Shown here: piece after piece, positions 2 through 8,235 of the stretch
Layout of the letters: every line of letters begins with the position of its first letter
Position numbering within the stretch: position 1 is the first letter of the stretch
Notes under the pieces: model-generated
What the model was told of the DNA's origin: nothing
The model's input: only the letters and a program-made list of their open reading frames with translations
The model's database searches: none
Origin: a virus
Taxonomy: Duplodnaviria > Heunggongvirae > Uroviricota > Caudoviricetes
Strand: one strand, 5' to 3'
DNA: 8,235 nucleotides
IMG/VR virus record: IMGVR_UViG_2651869696_000011
Program-made: the position numbers and the translations under genes

Positions 2-478
2 AAGCAGAAAAAGCTTATTATGCTTCCATCGGAAACGATGATCTGGCAGCCTGAGTTCACAGATAAAACACTCTCCAGGAAACCCGGGGCGGTTCAGGCC
101 GCCGGTCGTTATATTCGTTCGCATGAAGCCGTTCAGCACATCAGCATCCGCGACCGGCTGAATGATTTTATGCAGCAGCACGGCACAGTACTGGCGGCCG
201 CACTGGCACCGGAGCTGATGGGCTACAGTGAGCTGACGGCCATTGCCCGAAACTGTGCCATACAGCGTGCCACAGATGCCCTGCGTGAAGCCCTCCTGTC
301 CTGGCTTGCGAAGGGTGAAAAAATTAATTATTCCGCACAGGATAGCGACATTTTAACGGCCATTGGATTCAGACCTGACGCGGCTTCGGTGGATGACAGC
401 CGTGAAAAATTCACCCCTGCGCAGAACATGATTTTTTCGCGTAAAAGTGCGCAACTGGCATCACGTCAGTCTGTGTAA
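2..478 (+). CDS. psu: Psu-like polarity-suppression / capsid-decoration protein, C-terminal ~158 aa; 5' end lies outside the window
   Basis: Reading frame is open from the window edge (no stop between position 2 and the first ATG at 20), stop at 476-478. It is immediately upstream of, and transcribed toward, the cos site, as psu is in P4. Identity is inferred from context and recalled similarity to P4 Psu, not from an alignment. Confidence 0.55.
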   Translation, partial: KQKKLIMLPSETMIWQPEFTDKTLSRKPGAVQAAGRYIRSHEAVQHISIRDRLNDFMQQHGTVLAAALAPELMGYSELTAIARNCAIQRATDALREALLSWLAKGEKINYSAQDSDILTAIGFRPDAASVDDSREKFTPAQNMIFSRKSAQLASRQSV

Positions 479-514
479 AATTCCCCGAAAATCCGCCCGT
501 TTTTACTGAAAAAA

Positions 515-543
515 GCCATGCATCGATAAGGTGCATGGCTTTG
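515..543 (+). terminator. Putative rho-independent terminator downstream of the psu-like gene
   Basis: Perfect 8-bp stem gccatgca (515-522) / tgcatggc (532-539) with a 9-nt loop, followed by tttg; lies 37 nt after the stop codon. Confidence 0.45.
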
Positions 544-569
544 CATGCGTTTCCCTGCCTCATTTTCTG

Positions 570-597
570 CAGACCGCGCCATTCCCGGCGCGGTCTG
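570..597. other. Perfect 11-bp stem-loop in the cos-proximal spacer
   Basis: cagaccgcgcc (570-580) / ggcgcggtctg (587-597) with the 6-nt loop attccc; no T-tract follows, so it is not a classical terminator. Possibly part of the terminase recognition region near cos. Confidence 0.4.
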
Positions 598-642
598 AGC
601 GTGTCAGTGCAACTGCATTAAAACCGCCCCGCAAAGCGGGCG

Positions 643-661
643 GGCGAGGCGGGGAAAGCAC
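643..661. other. P2/P4-type cos cohesive-end sequence (cosN)
   Basis: Exact 19-nt string ggcgaggcggggaaagcac, which I recall as the cohesive-end sequence shared by P2, 186 and P4. It lies between the psu-like gene and the integrase-proximal cargo, as in P4. Confidence 0.6.
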
Positions 662-724
662 TGCGCGCCCGGTTGGTGCTCGTTACTAATGTTTTTTGCG
701 CCCGAGCACCGTCGGGAAGGGGCT

Positions 725-733
725 GGGGGGGGG
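725..733. repeat. G9 homopolymer inside a G-rich run (711-750: ggg, gggg, ggggggggg, gggg)
   Basis: Read directly from the sequence; the tract spacing fits a canonical G-quadruplex motif. Intergenic. Confidence 0.5.
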
Positions 734-896
734 ATAGGGGAGGTGCCTGACGTCGCGCGGTAATGTTGGTAAGTGTGCCGCTGATGGCTTCTGAGGGGAG
801 TGGTAAATAGCCGCCTTTCGACGGTGTAGTGGGGAGAGTATTGCTTACAAACGTAATGAAATTGTTTGAGTAGCTAGGCTACTGCATAGGATTATT

Positions 897-925
897 TTGT
901 TCTGTTAATATATCCGTTAATATAG
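897..925 (+). promoter_or_regulatory. Putative promoter and tandem 9-bp direct repeat upstream of the cargo operon
   Basis: gttaatata repeated at 904-912 and 916-924 (12-bp register); ttgttc (897-902) and atatag (920-925) are a possible -35/-10 pair with a 17-nt spacer. Lies in the AT-rich leader about 35 nt before the start codon at 959. Weak, sequence-only call. Confidence 0.25.
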
Positions 926-958
926 ATAGATTGATCCAATTGAGTTTAAGGAATGAGT

Positions 959-1342
959 ATGTTTCAGATATCAGCTGGAGTGTTCTTTGATTTAGATAAA
1001 ATAGAAAAACACGATGGCACATTTGTTTTTTATTCAAATGTTGATGTGTCTTTCTCGGTGGAAAACACCTCCCCTCTTTTTAAAGCAAATAAAATAAGTC
1101 ATGATGGTATAAACTGTTATGTGGTAAACTATACTCTCCTGACCGAAAAACCAGAACGAATTGAAGCTGGAGTCGTAGTTAGGGCTGGTGATGAGGATTA
1201 TAGGCAACAATTTATTTTATTATGGGAATTCTATTTTGATTGTGTGGCTAGAGTAGAAAAAGAATCGGTTAAAAAATATGTGCATTATCAAATTTTAATA
1301 AACATCACTCAAAAATTGCGCTTGAAGTTGCCCCATATTTAG
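959..1342 (+). CDS. Hypothetical protein (127 aa), first gene of the AT-rich cargo operon
   Basis: ORF 953-1342; the second in-frame ATG at 959 has a good SD (aagga at 947-951, 7-nt spacer), whereas the ATG at 953 is too close to it. AT-rich codon usage. No family recognised. Confidence 0.6.
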   Translation: MFQISAGVFFDLDKIEKHDGTFVFYSNVDVSFSVENTSPLFKANKISHDGINCYVVNYTLLTEKPERIEAGVVVRAGDEDYRQQFILLWEFYFDCVARVEKESVKKYVHYQILINITQKLRLKLPHI

Positions 1343-2661
1343 TGGAGATTAACCGAAGAGTTTCATTTGATGATGTCTCTGGGTTTTCTGCTTTTATTAA
1401 AGATGTAGTGAATCTAAATAGATCTGCCTTTAAATCTTTAATGGCAGCGTTAAAAATAATTAGTGATTCAAAAGAATCATTGTCAACCAACTTTGACCTG
1501 ACTTATTCCATGTTAGTCTATGCCTTGGAGTCTTTGTCTCAAAGAAATGATAACTATAAGTCTGATTGGGATGACTACGATCAAAAAACCAGAGGTGAAT
1601 TAGAGTCTGTATTTGAGCATATGCCTGGTGAGGATGTTTGTAAAATTAAATCAATACTTATTGAAGGCAAACAATTCAGATTACAAAAAAGGTTCAAAGA
1701 TTTTATACTGAAAAATCTTGAAGAAAATTATTTCAATGAAACAGAGAGATATCCAATCCGCTATAGCTTCCTTAGTAGAGCTTTAGATAATTTATACAAA
1801 ATCAGGTCTTCTTTTGTCCATGAGCTTAAGCCACTTGATGCAATGATCTCGAAAGCCTACAATCCTGTTGGTGATTGTCTGGTTCTTTTTGGCGAACCTC
1901 ACTTCAGTTACTCTGGATTGCTTCGACTTCTTCGCCATGTGATAATAAATTTTTGCCGTAAAAACTACAGTCAAAAAAGAGAGTATGTTAATTGGGTGAT
2001 GGAAACATCGGGTGTAATGGTTGCAGAGATATCTGCACAATATTGGCTCTGGAATGCAGACGGATTTACAGCTAAAAGTATAGCGAAGTGGTTTAGTGAA
2101 TACCTAAATATGTTAAATTTAGGCGAAGTCACTGATTTGCAGTCTATCATGGACAAAATTGAGATAATCTATGACCAATCCAAAAAAGAATATAAAAATG
2201 GGTTGTTGTATTTTTATTTCTTATATAACTTAATGCATAATGGAAATAAGGGTGAATGGCTTGAGTTTGCGAACAAGCGAAGTTCTATACTTGTTTGTGA
2301 TATATATTGGTATTCATGCTCTCCATATTTATATAAATCATTTACTAATGTTTCAAATGGTATTGCTGATATAAAAACATTGAGAAACTTTTTGTCTTGT
2401 TTTAACGAATATGATAAAAATAAATTTAAGCCAAATCGTTTAAATCTCCCTGCAATGACCGAAGTAATTATGTTGGCTTGCGCAGCAAATTCATTCTTCA
2501 GAATTGGAATGTATCAAGACTATGTTTTAATGGGCAATAGAGCGATGAGAGAAATTGCTTCAGTAAAAGATGTATTTTATTATATAAAAGAACGATTAAG
2601 TAATTCACAACTTATTGAATTGGACGAGTGCTTGAGATTGTATAGAAAAAAGGGGGGCTAA
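1342..2661 (+). CDS. Hypothetical protein (439 aa), second gene of the cargo operon; contains an Rx4H (HEPN-like) motif
   Basis: Long uninterrupted ORF with AT-rich codon usage. The only possible start before the first internal ATG (1441) is GTG at 1342, which overlaps the upstream stop (TAGTG) and has no clear SD, so the start is uncertain. The motif R-SSFV-H is at codons 155-160 (nt 1804-1821). Confidence 0.8.
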   Translation: MEINRRVSFDDVSGFSAFIKDVVNLNRSAFKSLMAALKIISDSKESLSTNFDLTYSMLVYALESLSQRNDNYKSDWDDYDQKTRGELESVFEHMPGEDVCKIKSILIEGKQFRLQKRFKDFILKNLEENYFNETERYPIRYSFLSRALDNLYKIRSSFVHELKPLDAMISKAYNPVGDCLVLFGEPHFSYSGLLRLLRHVIINFCRKNYSQKREYVNWVMETSGVMVAEISAQYWLWNADGFTAKSIAKWFSEYLNMLNLGEVTDLQSIMDKIEIIYDQSKKEYKNGLLYFYFLYNLMHNGNKGEWLEFANKRSSILVCDIYWYSCSPYLYKSFTNVSNGIADIKTLRNFLSCFNEYDKNKFKPNRLNLPAMTEVIMLACAANSFFRIGMYQDYVLMGNRAMREIASVKDVFYYIKERLSNSQLIELDECLRLYRKKGG

Positions 2662-2669
2662 CCCCTTTT
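2648..2669. terminator. Putative bidirectional terminator at the convergent junction of the cargo gene and the integrase
   Basis: 8-bp stem aaaagggg (2648-2655) / cccctttt (2662-2669) with the 6-nt loop ggctaa, A-tract on one side and ttttatttttaa on the other. Both stop codons (2659-2661 plus strand, 2658-2660 minus strand) lie in or beside the loop. Confidence 0.4.
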
Positions 2670-3854
2670 ATTTTTAACGTATTCACCCCACCAATCCATC
2701 AATTCAATTCGCTGCACGAGATAAGTAGAACGATTGTATGCTTTTCTAACTTCATTTTTATCACTGTGGGCTAAGGCAGACTCGATAACATCAGGATTTA
2801 ATCCAGCTTCATTCATGGCTGTACTTGCTATTGAACGTAATCCATGGGCAACTAATTTTCCGCCAAAACCAATACGTTTTAAAGCTGCATTTGCAGTCTG
2901 ACTGTTCATTGGTTTCTTTGGGTCATTCCGACTCGGAAAAACATATTCACGATGAGCACTAATAGGCTTCATCACATTAAGAATCTCTAATGCCTGAGAT
3001 GATAGAGGAATTATGTGTTCCCGTTTAGCCTTCATCCGTTCGGCAGGAATCGTCCAGAGCTTTGCATGAAGATCGATTTCTTCCCACCGAGTACTGGAGG
3101 CTTCAGAAGGGCGCACAAGAGTCAGGAGTTGCCATTCAATTAGACAGCGAGTCGGGATAGACAGATTTGACATGACTAAAGAACGCATCAGCTTTGGTAA
3201 TTCTTCAGGTCGAAGCGTCGGCATGTTTTGTTTTTTTGGCTTTTCGAAGGCCATGCCAACACCTGATGCTGGGTTTGCATCAATCAAGCCAGTGTTAACC
3301 GCATAAATCATTATTTCGTTAATGCGTTGCACCAGACGACGTACAGTCTCTAATGCCCCACGAGCTTTGACTGGCTCAAGTGCTTCGACCAATGTTCTAG
3401 CTTTGATCTGCTGAACGGGCATCTCACCAACGGCGGGGAATACATCTTTTTCCAATGAGCGCCAAATATCTTTTGCATAATCAGGGGTAACACTTTTGCT
3501 TTTGAGCTGAAACCAATTAGCGGCGACCGTCGAGAAAATACTGTCCTGTGCGATTTGCTGCTGTTCCTCTGCAATTTCAGCTTGAATTTGCGGGTCAATT
3601 CCGTTGGCTAACAAGGAAAGGTAATCCGCTCTTAAGCGTCGGGCGTCAGCAAGTGAAAGGGCTGGGAAGGCTCCTAGCCCCATCATTGTCCGTTGCTTTG
3701 TTGCCGGACGTTGATAACGGAAACGCCATAACTTCTTACCGTTCGTTTTAACGAGTAGAAAAAGACCATCGCCATCATGCAACGTTAGATCCTTTTCTAA
3801 CGCTTTAGCGCGCAGTACTTCTGTGTTGGTCAGGGGGCGTGTCGTTCTTGCCAA
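2658..3854 (-). CDS. int: P4-family tyrosine integrase (CP4-57 IntA-like), 398 aa
   Basis: N-terminus MARTTRPLT...DGDGLFLLV...LWRFRYQRP and C-terminal HGLRSIAST...ALAH...VRKAYNRSTYLVQR are characteristic of P4-type integrases. Its 5' end faces the ssrA-derived att core, the usual tRNA/tmRNA-int arrangement. Confidence 0.9.
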   Translation of the reverse strand: MARTTRPLTNTEVLRAKALEKDLTLHDGDGLFLLVKTNGKKLWRFRYQRPATKQRTMMGLGAFPALSLADARRLRADYLSLLANGIDPQIQAEIAEEQQQIAQDSIFSTVAANWFQLKSKSVTPDYAKDIWRSLEKDVFPAVGEMPVQQIKARTLVEALEPVKARGALETVRRLVQRINEIMIYAVNTGLIDANPASGVGMAFEKPKKQNMPTLRPEELPKLMRSLVMSNLSIPTRCLIEWQLLTLVRPSEASSTRWEEIDLHAKLWTIPAERMKAKREHIIPLSSQALEILNVMKPISAHREYVFPSRNDPKKPMNSQTANAALKRIGFGGKLVAHGLRSIASTAMNEAGLNPDVIESALAHSDKNEVRKAYNRSTYLVQRIELMDWWGEYVKNKRG

Positions 3855-3935: not shown

Positions 3936-3973
3936 GATTTAGCTGGATATCCTCGGACAACGGTAGACACAAA

Positions 3974-4005
3974 AAAGCCCGCAGAGCTTGTGCTATGCGG
4001 GCTTT
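3974..4005 (-). terminator. Rho-independent terminator (minus-strand sense) downstream of the tmRNA 3'-end copy
   Basis: Stem agcccgca (3976-3983) / tgcgggct (3996-4003) with a 12-nt loop; on the minus strand it is followed by a run of six T (complement of aaaaaa at 3971-3976). Confidence 0.5.
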
Positions 4006-4038
4006 CAGGATTTCTCCGGACGTATCCGGAAGAGCAAG

Positions 4039-4065
4039 TGGTGGAGCTGGCGGGAGTTGAACCCG
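4039..4065 (-). other. Attachment-site core: 27-nt copy of the ssrA (tmRNA) 3' end without the rest of the gene
   Basis: tggtggagctggcgggagttgaacccg is the reverse complement of the tmRNA 3' terminus (...CGGGUUCAACUCCCGCCAGCUCCACCA). The match breaks off at 4066 and the sequence to the right is an AT-rich protein-coding gene, so this is a partial att repeat, not a functional ssrA. Confidence 0.7.
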
Positions 4066-4103
4066 TGTCTGAAAAATATTAACCTGTTGTTTTAATTATA
4101 TAT

Positions 4104-4883
4104 TTATCTGAACATGGCGTTTGCGGCGCTTTTGCGTATCTTCTCTAGACCTTTTGTAGTCCATTTCTCTGGTACAGGTGTAAACCGTAGTGCAAAATCT
4201 GCCTCCATATTATCACCACTGAAACGTGCCACTCCACGTTCCAATTTTGTTTGCCAAGTGACTTTTTTAGTTTTACCCTCTATATCTTGATATTCAATAA
4301 TTAATTTTGGACCAGTGAATGATGAAGAACCGACTAATTTAAGTCTATGTGAAAGATATGCTATATTCAATAGAATATCAATTGCCGCGGTTGGTACAAA
4401 AATGTTTTTTGACTTCTTATCTATACTATATGGTAACGAAAAATCAATATCGTAAGGTGTCGATAAAGTATTGTACATATATACTTTTCTTTCTTTTATT
4501 ATTTTGAATATTCCATACTGGGAGTCGGTTGTAAAAGATTTATCTTCTTTTTTGAATTTTTTCGAAAACAACTCTAAATATAGATTTATGTTTTTTTTAT
4601 AATTAAAATCCCAATGATATCTAAGTGAAATTGCCGCCCCCAATCCTATGTTTGAAAATTTTGTTTGTGGAAGCGTAGGGGCTTGTAAGATATCAACATG
4701 AAAACCGTTGAAATCGTTAACATTCATCTTGATATTTAAAGTGTCTATCACTAAATTGGGTTTATAAGAGAGCCTTCTTTGAAATATCGTTAACCATATT
4801 GCATATAATGCAGCAATTGCTGAAATGAAAGTACCAACTGAAGATATGTAGGTGATTAGTTTGTCGAATGTAATTGTAATCAA
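4104..4883 (-). CDS. Hypothetical membrane-anchored protein (259 aa), a moron between integrase and att
   Basis: Strongly AT-rich ORF with a predicted N-terminal transmembrane helix (ITYISSVGTFISAIAALYAIWLTIF). The only start upstream of the first internal Met (codon 53) is TTG at 4881-4883, preceded by GGGGA at a 7-nt spacing. No family recognised. Confidence 0.65.
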   Translation of the reverse strand: MITITFDKLITYISSVGTFISAIAALYAIWLTIFQRRLSYKPNLVIDTLNIKMNVNDFNGFHVDILQAPTLPQTKFSNIGLGAAISLRYHWDFNYKKNINLYLELFSKKFKKEDKSFTTDSQYGIFKIIKERKVYMYNTLSTPYDIDFSLPYSIDKKSKNIFVPTAAIDILLNIAYLSHRLKLVGSSSFTGPKLIIEYQDIEGKTKKVTWQTKLERGVARFSGDNMEADFALRFTPVPEKWTTKGLEKIRKSAANAMFR

Positions 4884-4924: not shown

Positions 4925-6097
4925 TTAATTATGATTATGCAAATGATTTATCGATGTAAAGTTATCATACTCTTTAAGATACGAACCATAGTGCCTGAAA
5001 AGCATCTCCGGCCCTTTATGCCCCATTTGAGCTGCAAGCCAAAACAGGTTTGCTCCTCGGCTGATATGGCTGGTGGCGAATGTATGCCTGGTTTGATATG
5101 GGTTTCTGTAACGAATACCTGCTTTTCGCAATGTTGGCACCCATGCTTTTTTCCTAATTGCATCAGCACTTGCCCAAGGCTTATTGGTCTTTGGATCTTC
5201 AAAGACAGTAGCATCCTTCATGAATGTAAATGGCTTCTGATTTATCAGCGCCAACATTGCCTCTTCTGTCAGTTCAACTTTCCGAGTACCTGCTTTTGTC
5301 TTTGTCCCTTTGATAACACCGACAACACTTGCGCTCTGGACATGGGCAGTTTTTCCAACAAAGTCGATATCACGCCATCGAAGGGCACATAATTCAGAAC
5401 TACGCAGGCCTGTATGTATAGCGAACCGGAACAGATTTTCCCATTGTTTGTTTCCGGCTGCTGCTAGTAATGCATCAACTTCTGCTGGTGATAGCGGATC
5501 AACTACGTAGCTGCTTTCTGCTTCTGACTTATCACTTTGGTAGCGCGAAGCTGTTACTAACGATACGGGGTTAATTTGAAGTACCCCATCGGTCACGGCT
5601 TCATCAAGTGCTGACCGCAGGAAAGATAACTGGTTGCGAATGGTTTTTAAGGTCGTTTTCTGGCTTTGAATCCACGCTTTCAGGGTTGCTGGTGTTAATT
5701 CACTTGCAGGGCAAATGTGAAGTGAGGCTAACGCACTACGGCATTTTTTATAACCACCGATCGTGGATGGTGAAAGTTTCCTCGTTTCGCAGATTTCAAG
5801 GTATTCGTCCAGGTACATTTTTACCGTTTTGCCTGCAGCAGCATTACCAAAAATTTTCAAACGAGCAGAACGGGGAAAATATTCCGCATAAATGAATGTT
5901 CCCCTTTCGATCTTATTATGAATTTCGCCGAGTGTGCGCTCAGCGTATTTAATGTTCTTTGGTGTTACTTCCAGATTGGAAAGAGGCTCACGACATTTAA
6001 CTCCTTTGTAGGTGAAAGTTATATTGATCGTTTCGCCCTGGCGGTGTTTCCTGATTGTTACGCCGCGCGGTAGTTTGAGCAGTTTTGTCTGGCCCAT
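4925..6097 (-). CDS. int: Tyrosine integrase (390 aa)
   Basis: C-terminal catalytic region carries the recombinase residues (TGLRSSE; RHTFATSH; MGHKGPEMLFRHYGSY). ATG at 6095-6097 is preceded by gtgagg. Its 5' end overlaps the 3' end of the excisionase gene by 40 nt. Confidence 0.9.
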   Translation of the reverse strand: MGQTKLLKLPRGVTIRKHRQGETINITFTYKGVKCREPLSNLEVTPKNIKYAERTLGEIHNKIERGTFIYAEYFPRSARLKIFGNAAAGKTVKMYLDEYLEICETRKLSPSTIGGYKKCRSALASLHICPASELTPATLKAWIQSQKTTLKTIRNQLSFLRSALDEAVTDGVLQINPVSLVTASRYQSDKSEAESSYVVDPLSPAEVDALLAAAGNKQWENLFRFAIHTGLRSSELCALRWRDIDFVGKTAHVQSASVVGVIKGTKTKAGTRKVELTEEAMLALINQKPFTFMKDATVFEDPKTNKPWASADAIRKKAWVPTLRKAGIRYRNPYQTRHTFATSHISRGANLFWLAAQMGHKGPEMLFRHYGSYLKEYDNFTSINHLHNHN

Positions 6098-6539: not shown

Positions 6540-6898
6540 TTCTTAGTCTCCGGTGCTTTCGGTATTACTGCCCAGTGAGTAATATTGACGTTTTCAAGGT
6601 CCCCGACTTGAAATGTCCACTGCCATTCTCCGGTTTCTTTTTGCCCCCATGTGTACCAGAGAGAACGCCAGCCAATCAGCCAGCCTTCTCCGTTAGCATC
6701 AAATAACAGAACACTTTCATTTGCTGGCGGCAGTTCAGCTGACACTGGTATTACTTTGTTTTCCAGTGCTGCACATTTAGCTTCAAGCGCATCAAATTTA
6801 CGCACCAGGTATTCAGCATCCGTTTCATTCACTTTCAGATCTCGCGGTACACATTTCCCGCGCAGAAACCCTTCCATTTCGAAAACATTCATGCGCAT
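6536..6898 (-). CDS. DUF551-like phage protein (120 aa; YfdS-like)
   Basis: Trp-rich C-terminal segment (GWLIGWRSLWYTWGQ...ITHWAVIPKAPE) resembles the DUF551 signature found in lambdoid prophage early regions. Its start ATG (6896-6898) lies 7 nt inside the upstream HD gene (ATGCGCATGA). Confidence 0.55.
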   Translation of the reverse strand: MRMNVFEMEGFLRGKCVPRDLKVNETDAEYLVRKFDALEAKCAALENKVIPVSAELPPANESVLLFDANGEGWLIGWRSLWYTWGQKETGEWQWTFQVGDLENVNITHWAVIPKAPETKK

Positions 6899-7425
6899 TT
6901 GTGTAACTCCGATAATTCGTTAAAGCGTTCCATAAACATCCCGTAGGCATGGCCTGGAGCCAGTGGAATCACGTTGAATATCTCTGTTGCCGGGATACCT
7001 TCCAGCACAGGCCAGAAAGAGCCATCATCAAGCCCGAGATCGCGGCGTTCGGTTGCCAGCATGATGAGATCGGCATATTTCACGGGTGTACTCATAACCG
7101 GGGGTAACCCGTATTTCTCACGGATTACGGCGTCTATTTTTTCTTCCATCCGTTTATAGTCAGGAAGAAGGCGTTTCAGTGGTGCGGGGATGTCCTGGCA
7201 ATACGCTTCTGTTGCATCATGCATTAACGCTTCAAAAGCAAACTCCTGCGGTACCAGCTGGCTGCAAAGCACCGCATGTTGGGCGACGCTGTAGAAGTGT
7301 GAAAGATGACCAGCAAAGCGACAGATATTTGAAAGGGAAACCGCGATATCGTTAATAACGATGTCGTCTTTATTTATCTTGTCATAATAAAAATGCTTCC
7401 CGGAAAAAGTTTTAATAAATGACAT
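6889..7425 (-). CDS. yfdR: HD-domain phosphohydrolase, YfdR-like (178 aa)
   Basis: H...HD motif (RFAGH, SVAQH, MHDATEAY) typical of HD-superfamily enzymes. The ORF track begins at TTG 7506, but the ATG at 7423-7425 (MSFIKTF...) has a strong SD (gtggaga, 5-nt spacer) and gives the recalled 178-aa length of E. coli CPS-53 YfdR. Symbol is from memory, not a search. Confidence 0.7.
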   Translation of the reverse strand: MSFIKTFSGKHFYYDKINKDDIVINDIAVSLSNICRFAGHLSHFYSVAQHAVLCSQLVPQEFAFEALMHDATEAYCQDIPAPLKRLLPDYKRMEEKIDAVIREKYGLPPVMSTPVKYADLIMLATERRDLGLDDGSFWPVLEGIPATEIFNVIPLAPGHAYGMFMERFNELSELHKCA

Positions 7426-7545
7426 TTCGTTCTCCACTTTATATGCGCTGCACTGCGCTGAATTTTGGGAAAAGGAAGCCCTCGCCATCCGGCGATTATT
7501 AAGCAATTACGTTTCAATAGATGCCCCCGCAGGGGCGGTTAGTTT

Positions 7546-7740
7546 CTCCACAAAACAGAGAAGAACACCTGCGGTGACCGCCGCCCGGATGGATTGGGTT
7601 ATGAGCCCGTCGTCCGGTGATGCTCTTCTCTGTTTTGTAAAAAGAGCGGTACCAGCCGGAAGCAAGGGTACAAACTGGTACCGCCAGGACTACACACAGC
7701 ATAAAGTTGTGGTGCCGGGTGCCTCCCGGTGCCTGGCGAA
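7546..7740. other. GC-rich structured non-coding region (candidate ncRNA or cis-regulatory element)
   Basis: 15-bp inverted repeat acaaaacagagaaga (7550-7564) / tcttctctgttttgt (7624-7638) enclosing 59 nt. Perfect 10-bp hairpin gcggtaccag (7646-7655) / ctggtaccgc (7675-7684) with a 19-nt loop. Three ggtgcc direct repeats (7711-7733). The region is open in several frames on both strands with no RBS-supported ORF, which is typical of GC-rich non-coding DNA. Confidence 0.4.
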
Positions 7741-7938
7741 GGTTGCACACCAGACGGGTGGGTATCCACAGAAGGTCGACTGTCAGCCTCAACCTTAACC
7801 CGCGTGCGCTGAGCCGCATTCACCACAACGCTAAGGATTCTCTTTGGTTGAAAATACTTAGCTGTTATGTGCCTGTCTTTTCACCACTTCAGGCTCGGTG
7901 GTATCCTTTTAAGCCCGTATACATAAAAGGAAAATCAA

Positions 7939-8148
7939 ATGACTTTTGATGAAAAAGAACTTGATAATGCAATTAATAAAATCATCGTAACGTCGCTCTT
8001 TTCCTGTCTCAGCGACACTCAGCAGAAACAGTTCTACGAATCGGCTTTCAACATGATCGAGCGTTGTTGTTTCTGCGATGCCGACGAGTTACCTGAAAAA
8101 ATCAGGAAACAGTTGGCTGATGCTCTTCGAGTGCGACTTTCTGGGTGA
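7939..8148 (+). CDS. Hypothetical protein (69 aa), divergent from the int-xis operon
   Basis: ATG at 7939 preceded by aagga (7927-7931) with a 7-nt spacer. No family recognised. Confidence 0.5.
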   Translation: MTFDEKELDNAINKIIVTSLFSCLSDTQQKQFYESAFNMIERCCFCDADELPEKIRKQLADALRVRLSG

Positions 8149-8235
8149 TGCTGCCAACTTACTGATTTAGTGTATGATGGTGTTTTTGAGGTGCTCCAGT
8201 GGCTTCTGTTTCTATCAGCTGTCCCTCCTGTTCAG

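What the first reader, a model, noticed from the sequence alone, without database searches (positions are those of the whole stretch)
7510..7850. GC-rich structured non-coding block between the prophage early operon and a divergent gene
About 340 bp with no credible ORF but strong secondary-structure potential: a 15-bp inverted repeat (7550-7564 / 7624-7638) enclosing 59 nt, then a perfect 10-bp stem with a 19-nt loop (7646-7684), then three ggtgcc repeats (7711-7733). Its GC content contrasts with the flanking genes. It could be a small RNA, a leader for the leftward operon, or a recombination or replication site.
Basis: seen in the sequence. Interest (0 to 1): 0.5.

Follow-up and report, generated by a model that had tools for sequence, protein, structure and literature searches.

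The report
Prophage STnc100-like small RNA gene
The GC-rich block is non-coding DNA inside a prophage's leftward early operon that encodes, on the minus strand, a roughly 200-nt pseudoknotted small RNA related to the known STnc100/PasD prophage sRNAs, followed by a long processing-type hairpin; public records annotate the same block as a protein ("YmfH" in E. coli K-12).

Summary
All three sequence features exist at the stated coordinates. They belong to two conserved RNA modules read on the MINUS strand.

Module 1 (7851→7637) matches Rfam STnc100 over its full length at 42.1 bits (gathering score 47, E=1e-6). The "ggtgcc" repeats are its most conserved hairpin. The 10-bp stem plus U-tract is its intrinsic terminator.

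Module 2 (7643→7545) is a 25-bp hairpin (z=-7.8) in the 5' UTR of the next gene.

Covariation is strong: 23 of 26 helix pairs change on both sides across 109 distinct relatives. A pseudoknot not in the Rfam model is supported by more than 30 different complementary sequence pairs.

No reading frame is conserved, so the public "YmfH/hypothetical protein/frameshifted" annotations look spurious.

Relatives come in two contexts. About 70% have core, linker and terminator, like this one. About 30% are leaders directly upstream of dicB, kilR, kil or tciA.

Best reading: a divergent member of the STnc100/PasD family of Hfq-associated prophage sRNAs. The identity is well supported. The trans-acting mechanism is inferred from relatives only.

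Interest is moderate: a known kind, with new structural and annotation detail.

The parts
7851..7879 (-). Weak candidate sigma-70 promoter for the sRNA: -35 AAGACA (7879-7874), 17-nt spacer, -10 TATTTT (7856-7851). The inferred start is near 7845.
   Evidence: It scores 8 of 12 in my scan and falls below the tool's threshold. The sequence upstream of about 7843 is not conserved in ST64B or sal3, so this promoter is uncertain. The alternative source is PL, which lies beyond the IS1.
7699..7837 (-). Structured core of the STnc100-like RNA. Closing helix P1: 7829-7821 with 7714-7706. hp1: 7817-7802. P2: 7801-7799 with 7758-7756. P4: 7755-7748 with 7738-7731.
   Evidence: Rfam STnc100 match 7851-7637, 42.1 bits, E=1.2e-6. 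Custom model R1 scores 105.5 bits. Covariation. Coordinates.
7739..7796 (-). Pseudoknot or alternative pairing: AAGGUUG (7796-7790) with the P4 loop CAACCUU (7745-7739). A competing partner, UCGACCUU, lies at 7779-7772.
   Evidence: The same interaction is kept with different sequences: CAGUUAA/UUAACUG, UGGUUAU/AUAACCA, AAGGCUG/CAGCCUU, CCAGUC/GACUGG and more than 25 others. An own-sequence Watson-Crick run of at least 6 nt occurs in 53 of 93 sequences, against about 10% of cross-paired controls.
7685..7705 (-). Single-stranded linker UUUAUGCUGUGUGUAGUCCUG between core and terminator; candidate seed or Hfq-contact region.
   Evidence: UGCUGUGUG(U/A)AGUC is conserved in E. coli, Salmonella (ST64B) and Cronobacter (phiES15) copies, although their terminators differ. 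The seed function is inferred.
7637..7684 (-). Intrinsic terminator of the sRNA: stem 7684-7675/7655-7646, 19-nt loop, tail UCUUUUUAC (7645-7637).
   Evidence: Perfect 10-bp inverted repeat. It aligns to the terminator of the Rfam model. ST64B/sal3 and phiES15 have entirely different stem sequences but still a hairpin plus U-tract at the same place. In 91 of 131 family contexts a terminator ends a median 58 nt after the core.
7545..7643 (-). Module 2: long irregular hairpin. A 25-bp stem (7643-7619 with 7569-7545) is capped by a small three-way junction and followed by GGAGAAAC. It is a candidate RNase III processing or 5'-UTR element.
   Evidence: MFE -63.2 kcal/mol, z=-7.82. Constant length in 19 of 20 variants (one has a 1-nt insertion), with G-C to A-U and G-U to G-C changes that keep the stem. 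Substitutions show no codon-position bias in any frame. The module also occurs behind a divergent core in mEp460 and Stx2c phages.
7523..7536 (-). Small GC hairpin GCCCC-UGCG-GGGGC downstream of module 2.
   Evidence: Other loci have the variant GACCUUGCAGGGUC, with compensating changes, just before the SD and ATG of a yfdP-like gene.
6889..7425 (-). yfdR-like HD-family 5'-deoxynucleotidase, the next gene downstream in the leftward operon.
   Evidence: RefSeq annotation of the identical sequence. Weak Pfam YfbR-like hit.
7939..8148 (+). Divergent ymfI-like ORF (69 aa), truncated by the IS1 end that starts at 8144.
   Evidence: phrog_3311, E=7.6e-47. The K-12 neighbour at the same position is ymfI. 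IS1 identity.

Best explanation
The block is not a gene for a protein. On the minus strand it encodes two RNA modules inside the leftward (PL) early operon of an e14/SfV/ST64B-type lambdoid prophage.

Module 1 is an sRNA of about 200 nt belonging to the STnc100/PasD superfamily. It has a 5' pseudoknotted multi-helix core (P1, hp1, P2, P4, P5), then a 21-nt conserved single-stranded linker, then an intrinsic terminator. Transcription comes from PL, or from a weak promoter of its own, and stops at this terminator to give a discrete, stable RNA. By analogy with its relatives it acts in trans by base pairing through the linker, with Hfq and possibly CsrA, while the conserved core serves as a stabilising or protein-binding scaffold.

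Module 2 is a conserved 25-bp hairpin in the 5' UTR of the next gene. Polymerases that read through the terminator transcribe it, and it is most likely an RNase III processing or stability element for the downstream mRNA.

Shown here: non-coding status, strand, homology, secondary structure, pseudoknot, terminator and modularity. Inferred: the existence of a discrete transcript in this strain, Hfq/CsrA binding, trans targets, and RNase III cleavage.
For: Homology. Rfam STnc100 matches full length (model 1-206) at 42.1 bits, E=1.2e-6, on the minus strand. The homologues in SfII, ST64B, sal3, phiES15, P1 and PPompW also match, at 33-41 bits.

Structure.
- RNAalifold gives five helices.
- In 29 subfamily sequences, 97.9% of cells pair against 90.4% in shuffles, with 0 of 500 shuffles as high; slid controls give 27-48%.
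- In 109 distinct superfamily sequences, 96.4% pair against 80.1%, and 23 of 26 pairs change on both sides.
- The pseudoknot is supported.

Strand. G-U is the commonest pair at one P4 position. The U-tract lies only on the minus strand. The RNA is co-oriented with yfdR.

Terminator. It is replaced by unrelated hairpin-plus-U-tract sequences in Salmonella and Cronobacter copies. Core, linker and terminator is the modal architecture, found in 91 of 131 contexts.

Expression and function of relatives.
- STnc100 copies are transcribed in EHEC and one was confirmed by Northern blot (PMC5331693).
- EcOnc27, which overlaps an STnc100 copy, binds Hfq (PMC12711010).
- PasD1/2 are Hfq-dependent sRNAs with RIL-seq targets (PMC8550237).
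- PasD is structurally homologous to STnc100 (bioRxiv 10.64898/2026.05.13.724894).
- PasD2 is the top CsrA-bound chimera partner.

Module 2. z=-7.82, with conserved length and stem-preserving changes.
Against: The Rfam score is below the curated gathering threshold (42.1 versus 47).

There is no expression data for this locus. Its own promoter is weak (8 of 12) and not conserved in the Salmonella copies. In this strain IS1 separates it from PL, so it may be poorly expressed here.

About 30% of relatives lack a terminator and sit 30-45 nt upstream of dicB, kilR, kil or tciA start codons. That context argues for a cis role of the core.

A pseudoknotted five-helix core that is more conserved than its linker is atypical for a simple base-pairing sRNA.

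No target was found: the one search, in the 18.5 kb around the homologous locus, was at chance level.

The covariation alignment A5 was fitted to the model, and the loci were retrieved through conserved motifs, which fixes some columns by construction.
Confidence: 0.6

Rival explanations
1. A cis-acting leader or processing module. The conserved core, and the hairpin of module 2, act only on their own transcript. They would be RNase III/RNase E processing sites that excise or stabilise segments of the long early transcript and set the translation or stability of the downstream gene. Any released RNA would be a by-product.
For: The core lies 30-45 nt upstream of the start codons of dicB, kilR, kil, tciA and other small genes, with no terminator, in about 30% of contexts.

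In Qin-type prophages it directly follows DicF (DicF at L010 1944-1995, core from 2007). The published RNase III-dependent 72-nt DicF 3' end (PMC5069750) maps by my arithmetic to about L010 2015, inside the 15-16-bp extended P1 helix of the core.

Module 2 has a 25-bp duplex, which is RNase III-sized.

Upstream sequences, and therefore any promoter, are not conserved between the E. coli and Salmonella copies.
Against: In the window type the core is followed by a terminator that has been maintained through complete sequence replacement. That selects for a discrete short RNA.

Many canonical relatives have good promoters ending a few nt before P1, e.g. TTGACA-17-TAAATT.

Relatives are abundant Hfq- or CsrA-bound RNAs.

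P1 here is only 9 bp, too short for RNase III.

Cis and trans roles are not mutually exclusive.
Confidence: 0.25
2. A put-like processive antiterminator RNA. The nascent core, in particular the last two stem-loops P4 and P5 that are separated by one nucleotide, would bind RNA polymerase and let it read through the terminators of the early (PL) and late (PR') operons, as HK022 putL and putR do.
For: Members sit downstream of PL-type promoters (this locus, the dicB operon, the P1 ban operon). Others sit directly at PR'-like promoters between Q and the lysis genes, the same kind of operon in which antitermination operates.

No N-like protein is evident between PL and the core: the 91-aa ORF there has no Pfam family.

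Like put (PMC9378689), the core has a complex tertiary fold.
Against: blastn with word size 7 finds no similarity to the HK022 genome. Neither Rfam STnc100 (HK022 26-31 kb only) nor my model R1 (all of HK022 and the lambda Q-S region) hits there.

A terminator conserved immediately after the element, and discrete RNAs of about 190-210 nt seen for relatives, show that termination does occur.

Tandem arrays of several copies make little sense for an antiterminator.
Confidence: 0.07
3. A real or decayed protein-coding gene. This would be the 'YmfH' of K-12 e14, SfII_35, or the PGAP 'frameshifted hypothetical protein', with the structures being incidental.
For: RefSeq and GenBank annotate CDSs here: a frameshifted pseudogene at window 7507-7826 in identical or near-identical strains, SfII_35 and ymfH in K-12. 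PHROG families phrog_33599 and phrog_3651 match ORFs on both strands.
Against: Annotators use different frames and even different strands.

ORF length in the YmfH frame is 75, 103, 19, 27 or 12 codons among homologues. In the SfII_35 frame it ranges from 7 to 112 codons, or stays open.

Core lengths of 128-154 nt differ by non-multiples of 3.

Substitutions are spread evenly over codon positions in all six frames: 7/4/7 and 5/5/6.

Protein identity is about 52-55% where DNA identity is about 77%.

There are no Pfam hits. The peptides are Arg/Cys/Pro-rich and look like junk.
Confidence: 0.03
4. A DNA-level site: an attachment or recombination site, an origin, or a primosome assembly site acting as double- or single-stranded DNA.
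For: Inverted and direct repeats lie in an intergenic, GC-rich block near int/xis.
Against: The pairing includes frequent G-U pairs, which would be A-C mismatches on the other strand.

A U-tract terminator and sRNA covariance-model matches are strand-specific.

The same element occurs in late operons, in P1 and next to DicF, far from any att or ori.

The prophage att site (ssrA fragment) is at 4039-4114.
Confidence: 0.02

Closest known systems
STnc100 (Rfam RF02076), Gammaproteobacterial prophage sRNA
   Same: Full-length alignment to the 206-nt model. Shared features: the closing helix with the GGUGAAU junction; hp1 with a 5-bp stem, a bulged base and a UNNGC loop; a penultimate hairpin; the invariant CCGGGAGGCACCCGG hairpin; then linker and terminator. 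It is prophage-borne in Enterobacteriaceae. My model built from this subfamily recovers canonical copies at 40-67 bits.
   Different: The score is below the gathering threshold (42.1 versus 47). The hp1 stem is GCGGC/GC-A-CGC instead of CCCCC/GG-A-GGG. It lies in the leftward early (PL) operon between the repressor and int, not between Q/stx and the lysis genes. It is followed by an extra conserved 25-bp hairpin.
PasD1/PasD2 (EPEC prophage sRNAs) and EcOnc27 (EHEC)
   Same: Zhu et al. report PasD as structurally homologous to STnc100, and EcOnc27 overlaps an STnc100 copy. All are prophage intergenic RNAs ending in an intrinsic terminator. These are the relatives with experimental support for Hfq and, for PasD2, CsrA association.
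   Different: I had no PasD or EcOnc27 sequence, so similarity was not tested directly. PasD is linked to Q and lpxR in late regions. Seeds differ between family members, so targets cannot be transferred.
The dicF-dicB, kilR, kil and tciA leaders (Qin, Rac, phiES15, P1)
   Same: The closest sequence relatives of this core, sharing the same hp1 motif, are the untranslated stretches directly upstream of these genes.
   Different: Those copies lack the linker and terminator and have a longer P1 (15-16 bp in Qin types). The window copy has a terminator and precedes yfdR, or yfdP-like genes in relatives, rather than a division inhibitor.
ymfH of E. coli K-12 prophage e14
   Same: 92.6% identical over the 215 nt, at the same position between ymfI/ymfJ and the xis-int end of the operon.
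   Different: K-12 annotates it as a 103-aa protein. The K-12 copy carries a deletion and a substitution in the otherwise invariant P5 hairpin and is followed directly by xisE.
HK022 put RNAs; lambda 6S RNA and StxS (promoter-proximal terminated transcripts)
   Same: All are structured RNAs made from the first few hundred nt of antitermination-controlled phage operons. Short terminated transcripts can accumulate in lysogens. The statements about lambda 6S and StxS rest on my own knowledge. Those about put come from PMC9378689.
   Different: There is no sequence or model similarity to HK022 or to the lambda Q-S region. The architecture differs from put: five helices plus a pseudoknot, against two stems with a triplex.

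Membership tests
STnc100 (Rfam RF02076) | Covariance-model score at or above the curated gathering threshold (47 bits) | tested here: not met
   42.1 bits, E=1.2e-6, model positions 1-206 of 206, minus strand 7851-7637. Relatives of the same subfamily score 33-41 bits.
STnc100 (Rfam RF02076) | Consensus architecture: closing helix, 5' hairpin, penultimate hairpin, CCGGGAGGCACCCGG hairpin, 3' terminator | tested here: met
   See the Rfam alignment and RNAalifold. The joint alignment with canonical copies keeps 96.4% of pairs, with double-sided changes in 23 of 26 pairs. All 5 hp1 pairs switch between the two subfamilies.
STnc100 (Rfam RF02076) | Prophage-borne in Enterobacteriaceae, often multi-copy | tested here: met
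   The element lies in an e14/SfV-type prophage. It is present in 2714 of 5426 complete E. coli genomes, 1828 of them with at least 80% coverage. It also occurs in Salmonella, Shigella, Cronobacter, Citrobacter and Enterobacter.
STnc100 / PasD (as Hfq-associated sRNAs) | A discrete transcript of about 200 nt that binds Hfq and pairs with targets | not testable with these tools
   Only relatives have data: Northern and RNA-seq, Hfq CLIP and RIL-seq, CsrA.
PasD1/PasD2 | Sequence similarity to the E2348/69 PasD genes | not tested
The link rests on Zhu et al..
Intrinsic (Rho-independent) terminator | GC-rich hairpin immediately followed by a U-tract on the transcribed strand, maintained in evolution | tested here: met
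   A 10-bp perfect stem at 7684-7675/7655-7646 plus UCUUUUU. Unrelated but equivalent terminators stand at the same place in ST64B/sal3 and phiES15. The simple scanner missed it because its loop limit is 8 nt.
HK022 put antiterminator RNA | Sequence or structure similarity to putL/putR | tested here: not met
   No blastn similarity to HK022. No STnc100 hit in HK022 26-31 kb and no R1 hit anywhere in HK022.
HK022 put antiterminator RNA | Terminator read-through dependent on the RNA and on the beta' zinc-binding domain | not testable with these tools
   This needs transcription assays.
Protein-coding gene (YmfH / SfII_35 / phrog_33599 / phrog_3651) | A reading frame conserved among homologues, with codon-position bias of substitutions | tested here: not met
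   ORF lengths vary from 7 to more than 112 codons in both candidate frames. Indels are not multiples of 3. There is no third-position excess in any of six frames. There is no Pfam family.
RNase III substrate (module 2) | About 20 bp or more of nearly perfect dsRNA | tested here: met
   A 25-bp stem including G-U pairs, with no mismatch in the MFE fold.
RNase III substrate (module 2) | rnc-dependent cleavage in vivo or in vitro | not testable with these tools
   There is only an indirect parallel. The RNase III-dependent 72-nt DicF end maps into the extended P1 helix of the related core in Qin-type prophages.

The most novel reading that the evidence does not exclude
The conserved core would not be merely the body of a base-pairing sRNA. 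It would be an autonomous, pseudoknotted RNA domain (five helices plus a loop-strand tertiary helix) that phages place in antitermination-controlled early and late operons. It often sits immediately upstream of host-toxic genes (dicB, kilR, kil, tciA, icd-type). There it would act in cis as a processing, gating or polymerase- or protein-binding element.

That would make it a new class of phage cis-regulatory RNA whose K-12 copies are hidden as 'ymfH' and as the dicB and kilR leaders. The window copy would be a derivative in which a terminator converts the same domain into a released RNA.
Probability: 0.22. Interest if true: 0.65.

Novelty: new member of a known kind. Interest (0 to 1): 0.4.

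Why it matters
The practical point is annotation. A block present in roughly half of complete E. coli genomes is filed as a hypothetical protein, a frameshifted pseudogene or "YmfH". It is a structured RNA of the STnc100/PasD family that the Rfam threshold just misses. Screens that score "ymfH" as a protein may be reading an RNA effect; one example is its reported triggering of a retron toxin.

Biologically, three findings give testable handles on a multi-copy prophage RNA family whose function is still open:
- a covarying pseudoknot;
- two usage modes of the same core, as a released sRNA and as the leader of dicB, kilR or tciA;
- the coincidence of the known RNase III site of DicF maturation with the core's closing helix.

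In this strain the IS1 insertion cuts the RNA off from PL. That makes the strain a natural test of whether the RNA has its own promoter.

Tried and rejected
1. put-like antiterminator. I fetched HK022 and ran an Rfam scan of 26-31 kb, blastn with word size 7 and my model R1 on all of HK022 and the lambda Q-S region. Nothing matched. I keep it only as a low-probability functional analogy.

2. Coding gene.
- Pfam gave nothing.
- PHROGs hit families on both strands, which I read as families of spurious ORFs.
- tblastn across homologues, codon-position counts and ORF-length census showed no conserved frame. Rejected.

3. boxA/nut resemblance of CGCUCUUUUUACAA at the terminator tail. The GCUC is not conserved in SfII and others (GUCC). 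Rejected by inspection.

4. Target search. I looked for the complement of the linker in the 18.5-kb homologous locus. The result was at chance level: 3 matches including the linker itself, and 30 of 200 shuffles did as well.

5. Literature. Searches for a described dicB or kilR leader structure, or for an sRNA in ST64B at this position, found nothing specific.

6. Pseudoknot test with the count of structure pairs. This was not possible because MAFFT and the model alignment do not put the two strands in register. I replaced it with an own-versus-cross complementarity test in Python.

7. The promoter scanner found no promoter on the minus strand upstream of the RNA. My relaxed scan gives only 8 of 12.

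8. Other weak Rfam hits in the window look like chance or are partial matches: STnc310 (E=0.91) is probably chance, IsrM matches only a terminator, and tmRNA matches only its 3' end.
Full report
SETTING

The window carries the left arm of a lambdoid prophage of the e14/SfV/ST64B type. A strain with 100% identity over 7400-7950 (KSC1031, locus L001; window coordinate = L001 - 1601) gives the gene order in the leftward direction: ymfK (cI-like repressor), a 91-aa ORF, the block, yfdR, three small ORFs and int.

In L001 the repressor gene is followed by a terminator and then a strong promoter with repeated operator-like TGTACC motifs. The promoter is TTGACA, 17 nt, CATAAT, at L001 about 10133-10100. 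I take it to be PL.

In the window an IS1 end starts at 8144. It truncates the divergent ymfI-like ORF (7939-8148) and separates the block from PL.

OBSERVATION

- The 15-bp inverted repeat extends to 25-nt arms (I1).
- The 10-bp perfect stem with a 19-nt loop is there (I5).
- The three ggtgcc copies lie at 7711-7733.
- GC content is 54-56% against about 40% in the flanks.

The folds are better than shuffles. For the minus strand of 7630-7860, z=-3.12. For 7515-7645, z=-7.82.

WHAT IT IS: MODULE 1

An Rfam scan at E-value threshold gives one relevant match. It is STnc100 (RF02076) on the minus strand, 7851-7637, covering model positions 1-206 of 206, at 42.1 bits (gathering score 47) and E=1.2e-6.

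This segment comprises hairpin P5 and the 3' strand of the closing helix.

Homologues occur at 97-99% identity in phages SfII, SfV and SfIV and in many E. coli phages. They occur at about 77-88% in Salmonella ST64B and 118970_sal3, and at 77% in Cronobacter phiES15. Fragments match P1, SJ46 and PPompW prophages. All of these match STnc100 below threshold, at 33-41 bits.

Between the E. coli and Salmonella copies three things stand out.
- The core is almost invariant.
- The sequence upstream of about 7843 is unrelated.
- The terminator hairpin is replaced by a completely different hairpin plus U-tract. phiES15 has a third version.

This is the signature of selection for termination on this strand.

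STRUCTURE

I collected relatives with two motif scans of public collections. From them I extracted 41 distinct cores of this subfamily, which I recognise by the hp1 motif GAAUGCGGCUNAGCGCACGCG.

RNAalifold on 29 of them gives five helices:
- P1, the closing helix (9 bp);
- hp1 (5 bp with a bulged A and the loop UNAGC);
- P2 (3 bp);
- P4;
- P5.

In this alignment 97.9% of cells pair, against 90.4% in column shuffles (0 of 500 shuffles as high) and 27-48% when partners are slid. Seven pairs change on both sides.

A covariance model built from this alignment (R1) scores the window copy at 105.5 bits. It also recovers 140 matches in 100 loci, including canonical STnc100 copies at 40-67 bits.

In the resulting alignment of 109 distinct sequences, 96.4% of cells pair against 80.1% in shuffles. 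Double-sided changes occur in 23 of 26 pairs. All five hp1 pairs are among them: GCGGC/GC-A-CGC in this subfamily, and CCCCC/GG-A-GGG or CUUUC/GAAAG elsewhere.

Two caveats apply. This alignment is fitted to the model. The retrieval motifs also fix some columns by construction.

G-U is the commonest pair at one P4 position. That assigns the structure to the minus-strand RNA rather than to DNA or to the plus strand.

PSEUDOKNOT

The 7 nt following P2's 5' strand (AAGGUUG, 7796-7790) are complementary to the apical loop of P4 (CAACCUU, 7745-7739). The same relationship holds with different sequences in other clades:
- CAGUUAA/UUAACUG (Qin/Rac type);
- UGGUUAU/AUAACCA (P1);
- UGGUUAA/UUAACCA;
- AAGGCUG/CAGCCUU (phiES15);
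- CCAGUC/GACUGG, AUCAGCA/UGCUGAU and others in canonical STnc100.

Across 93 distinct sequences, the longest Watson-Crick run between these two regions is at least 6 nt in 53. This is true of about 10% of cross-paired controls. The means are 5.6 and 3.9 nt.

The pairing crosses P2 and P4, so it is a pseudoknot, or in some members an alternative to the inner part of P4. In the window AAGGUUGA can also pair with UCGACCUU (7779-7772), which is the MFE choice. I found no mention of this interaction in the papers I read, and a nested Rfam model cannot contain it.

MODULE 2

Downstream of the terminator lies a 99-nt element (7643-7545). It is a 25-bp stem capped by a small three-way junction, followed by GGAGAAAC and a small GC hairpin at 7536-7523.

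Its length is constant in 19 of 20 variants; one carries a 1-nt insertion. The three diverged types (E. coli, Salmonella and an e14/K-12-like type) keep the stem through G-C to A-U, G-U to G-C and C-G to U-G changes.

It is separable from the window-type core. mEp460, cdtI and Stx2c phages carry the terminator and hairpin at 96% identity behind a divergent core variant that R1 scores at only 33 bits. In most loci it precedes a yfdP-like gene. In the window yfdP and yfdQ are absent and yfdR follows.

A 25-bp duplex in a 5' UTR is the classical RNase III substrate. That role is inferred, not shown.

NOT A PROTEIN GENE

Public records disagree on what is coded here.
- PGAP calls a frameshifted pseudogene at window 7507-7826.
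- SfII annotates a CDS in another frame.
- ST64B and SfV annotate nothing.
- mEp460 annotates the opposite strand.
- K-12 calls the homologous block (92.6% identical) protein YmfH. PGAP's frameshift is relative to that protein.

Several tests argue against coding.
- ORF length in the YmfH frame is 75, 103, 19, 27 or 12 codons among homologues. The SfII_35 frame varies just as much.
- Core lengths from 128 to 154 nt differ by non-multiples of three.
- Substitutions fall evenly on codon positions in all six frames.
- Protein identities of 52-55% accompany 77% DNA identity.
- Pfam finds nothing.
- PHROGs has families on both strands, as expected for ORFs called over conserved non-coding DNA.

CONTEXT OF THE FAMILY

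Of 131 distinct downstream contexts, 91 have an intrinsic terminator. Its stem ends a median 58 nt after the core. In the window the distance is 65 nt, so the window copy has the modal architecture.

Many canonical copies start a few nt after good promoters, e.g. TTGACA-17-TAAATT. They lie between a Q-like gene end and the lysis genes, sometimes twice in a row or in arrays.

The other 40 contexts have no terminator. In the window's own subfamily these are leaders ending 30-45 nt before the start codons of dicB (with DicF immediately upstream), kilR, a Cronobacter kil, P1 tciA, small membrane or zinc-finger-like ORFs, and C4/IsrK-like regions.

The published RNase III-dependent 72-nt form of DicF (PMC5069750) ends, by coordinates (DicF at L010 1944-1995, core from 2007), inside the 15-16-bp extended P1 helix of that core.

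MECHANISM

Relatives provide the only functional data.
- STnc100 copies are transcribed in EHEC, and one was confirmed by Northern blot.
- EcOnc27, which overlaps a copy downstream of stx2B, binds Hfq.
- PasD1 and PasD2 are abundant, Hfq-dependent sRNAs with many RIL-seq partners.
- Zhu, Shabalina and Storz link PasD structurally to STnc100 and note different seeds.
- PasD2 is the most abundant RNA in CsrA-bound chimeras.

I therefore favour a released sRNA of about 200 nt. Its conserved linker (UGCUGUGUGUAGUC, shared by the E. coli, Salmonella and Cronobacter copies) would be the pairing region and its core a scaffold. Module 2 would process or stabilise read-through mRNA.

Identity and structure are well supported (about 0.9). 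The trans-acting mechanism is an inference (about 0.5). The main rival is a purely cis role, which the leader-type relatives make plausible. The two roles could coexist.

The put-like antiterminator idea fails every similarity test. A DNA-site reading is contradicted by strand-specific RNA features.

VERDICT

This is a real, conserved, structured RNA locus. It is a divergent, sub-threshold member of a known prophage sRNA family, widely mis-annotated as protein. It comes with a newly noted pseudoknot and an attached conserved hairpin. Interest is moderate.

Noticed in passing
window 8144-8235: The left end of an IS1 element (100% identical to IS1A/IS1B ends). It truncates the ymfI-like ORF 7939-8148, with the stop codon supplied by IS1. 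It also separates the RNA block and the yfdR-int genes from the PL promoter seen in IS1-free strains.
   Followed up: partly
window 20-3854: The right end of a P4-like satellite. It has psu (20-478, Pfam Psu, E=4e-62) and two AT-rich ORFs (953-1342 and 1342-2661, GC about 28-35%) in the psu-int position, which I recall as a defence-gene hotspot in P4-like satellites. The 439-aa ORF has only a weak PADLOC ApeA/HEPN-type hit (E=3.6e-6). A P4-type integrase follows at 2658-3854 (-).
   Followed up: partly
window 3971-4114 (-): The 3' end of tmRNA (ssrA), ending CCACCA at 4039, followed by a terminator that produced the partial IsrM hit. This is an att-type fragment lying between two integrases, so two mobile elements are integrated in tandem at ssrA.
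   Followed up: no
window 4104-4883 (-): A very AT-rich (GC 23-33%) 259-aa ORF with no Pfam or PADLOC family. It lies between the ssrA fragment and the lambdoid integrase (4925-6097). Strain KSC1031 carries a DarT/NADAR (DarTG-like) pair at the same place, so this is a variable cargo slot.
   Followed up: partly
L237 2501-2837 (E. coli K-12 e14): The K-12 gene ymfH (103 aa, y-ome) is the homologue of this RNA block. Its copy has a 1-nt deletion and a G-to-A change in the otherwise invariant P5 hairpin. A ymfH clone was reported as a trigger of the retron-Sen2 toxin RcaT. Reg-Seq saw a start site for the ymfH-xisE-intE unit only with gentamicin.
   Followed up: partly
L010 1944-2149 (PPompW) and 14 of the 18 loci sharing that downstream sequence: The core follows the DicF terminator by about 12 nt and precedes dicB. 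The literature's RNase III-dependent 72-nt DicF 3' end falls in the core's extended closing helix.
   Followed up: partly
L155 2318-3359; L202 4372-5467 and 8371-8523; L163 365-996; L171 1718-2340: Tandem arrays of 3-6 STnc100-type cores spaced about 220-270 nt apart in IMG/VR viral contigs. The reason for such arrays is unexplained.
   Followed up: no
L136, L062, L094, L104, L116 (downstream of the core): In some contigs the core is followed within about 100 nt by a C4/IsrK-like sequence (GGGUGCCGGGCGUGGAAACCCG). ST64B also carries an IsrK-family RNA (64 bits) to the right of its immunity region (L004 19-95).
   Followed up: no
L150 1480-1600 (minus strand as displayed): Downstream of a canonical core that starts at a PR'-like promoter (TTGACA-17-TAAATT), a conserved stretch reads CCUGGUAAAUCGGUAGCUCGGACUAUUAG before a strong terminator. 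It was not identified.
   Followed up: no
window 7347-7388 (-): A weak Rfam STnc310 hit (23 bits, E=0.91) inside yfdR. It coincides with a terminator-like hairpin on the plus strand (7343-7367) and is probably chance.
   Followed up: no
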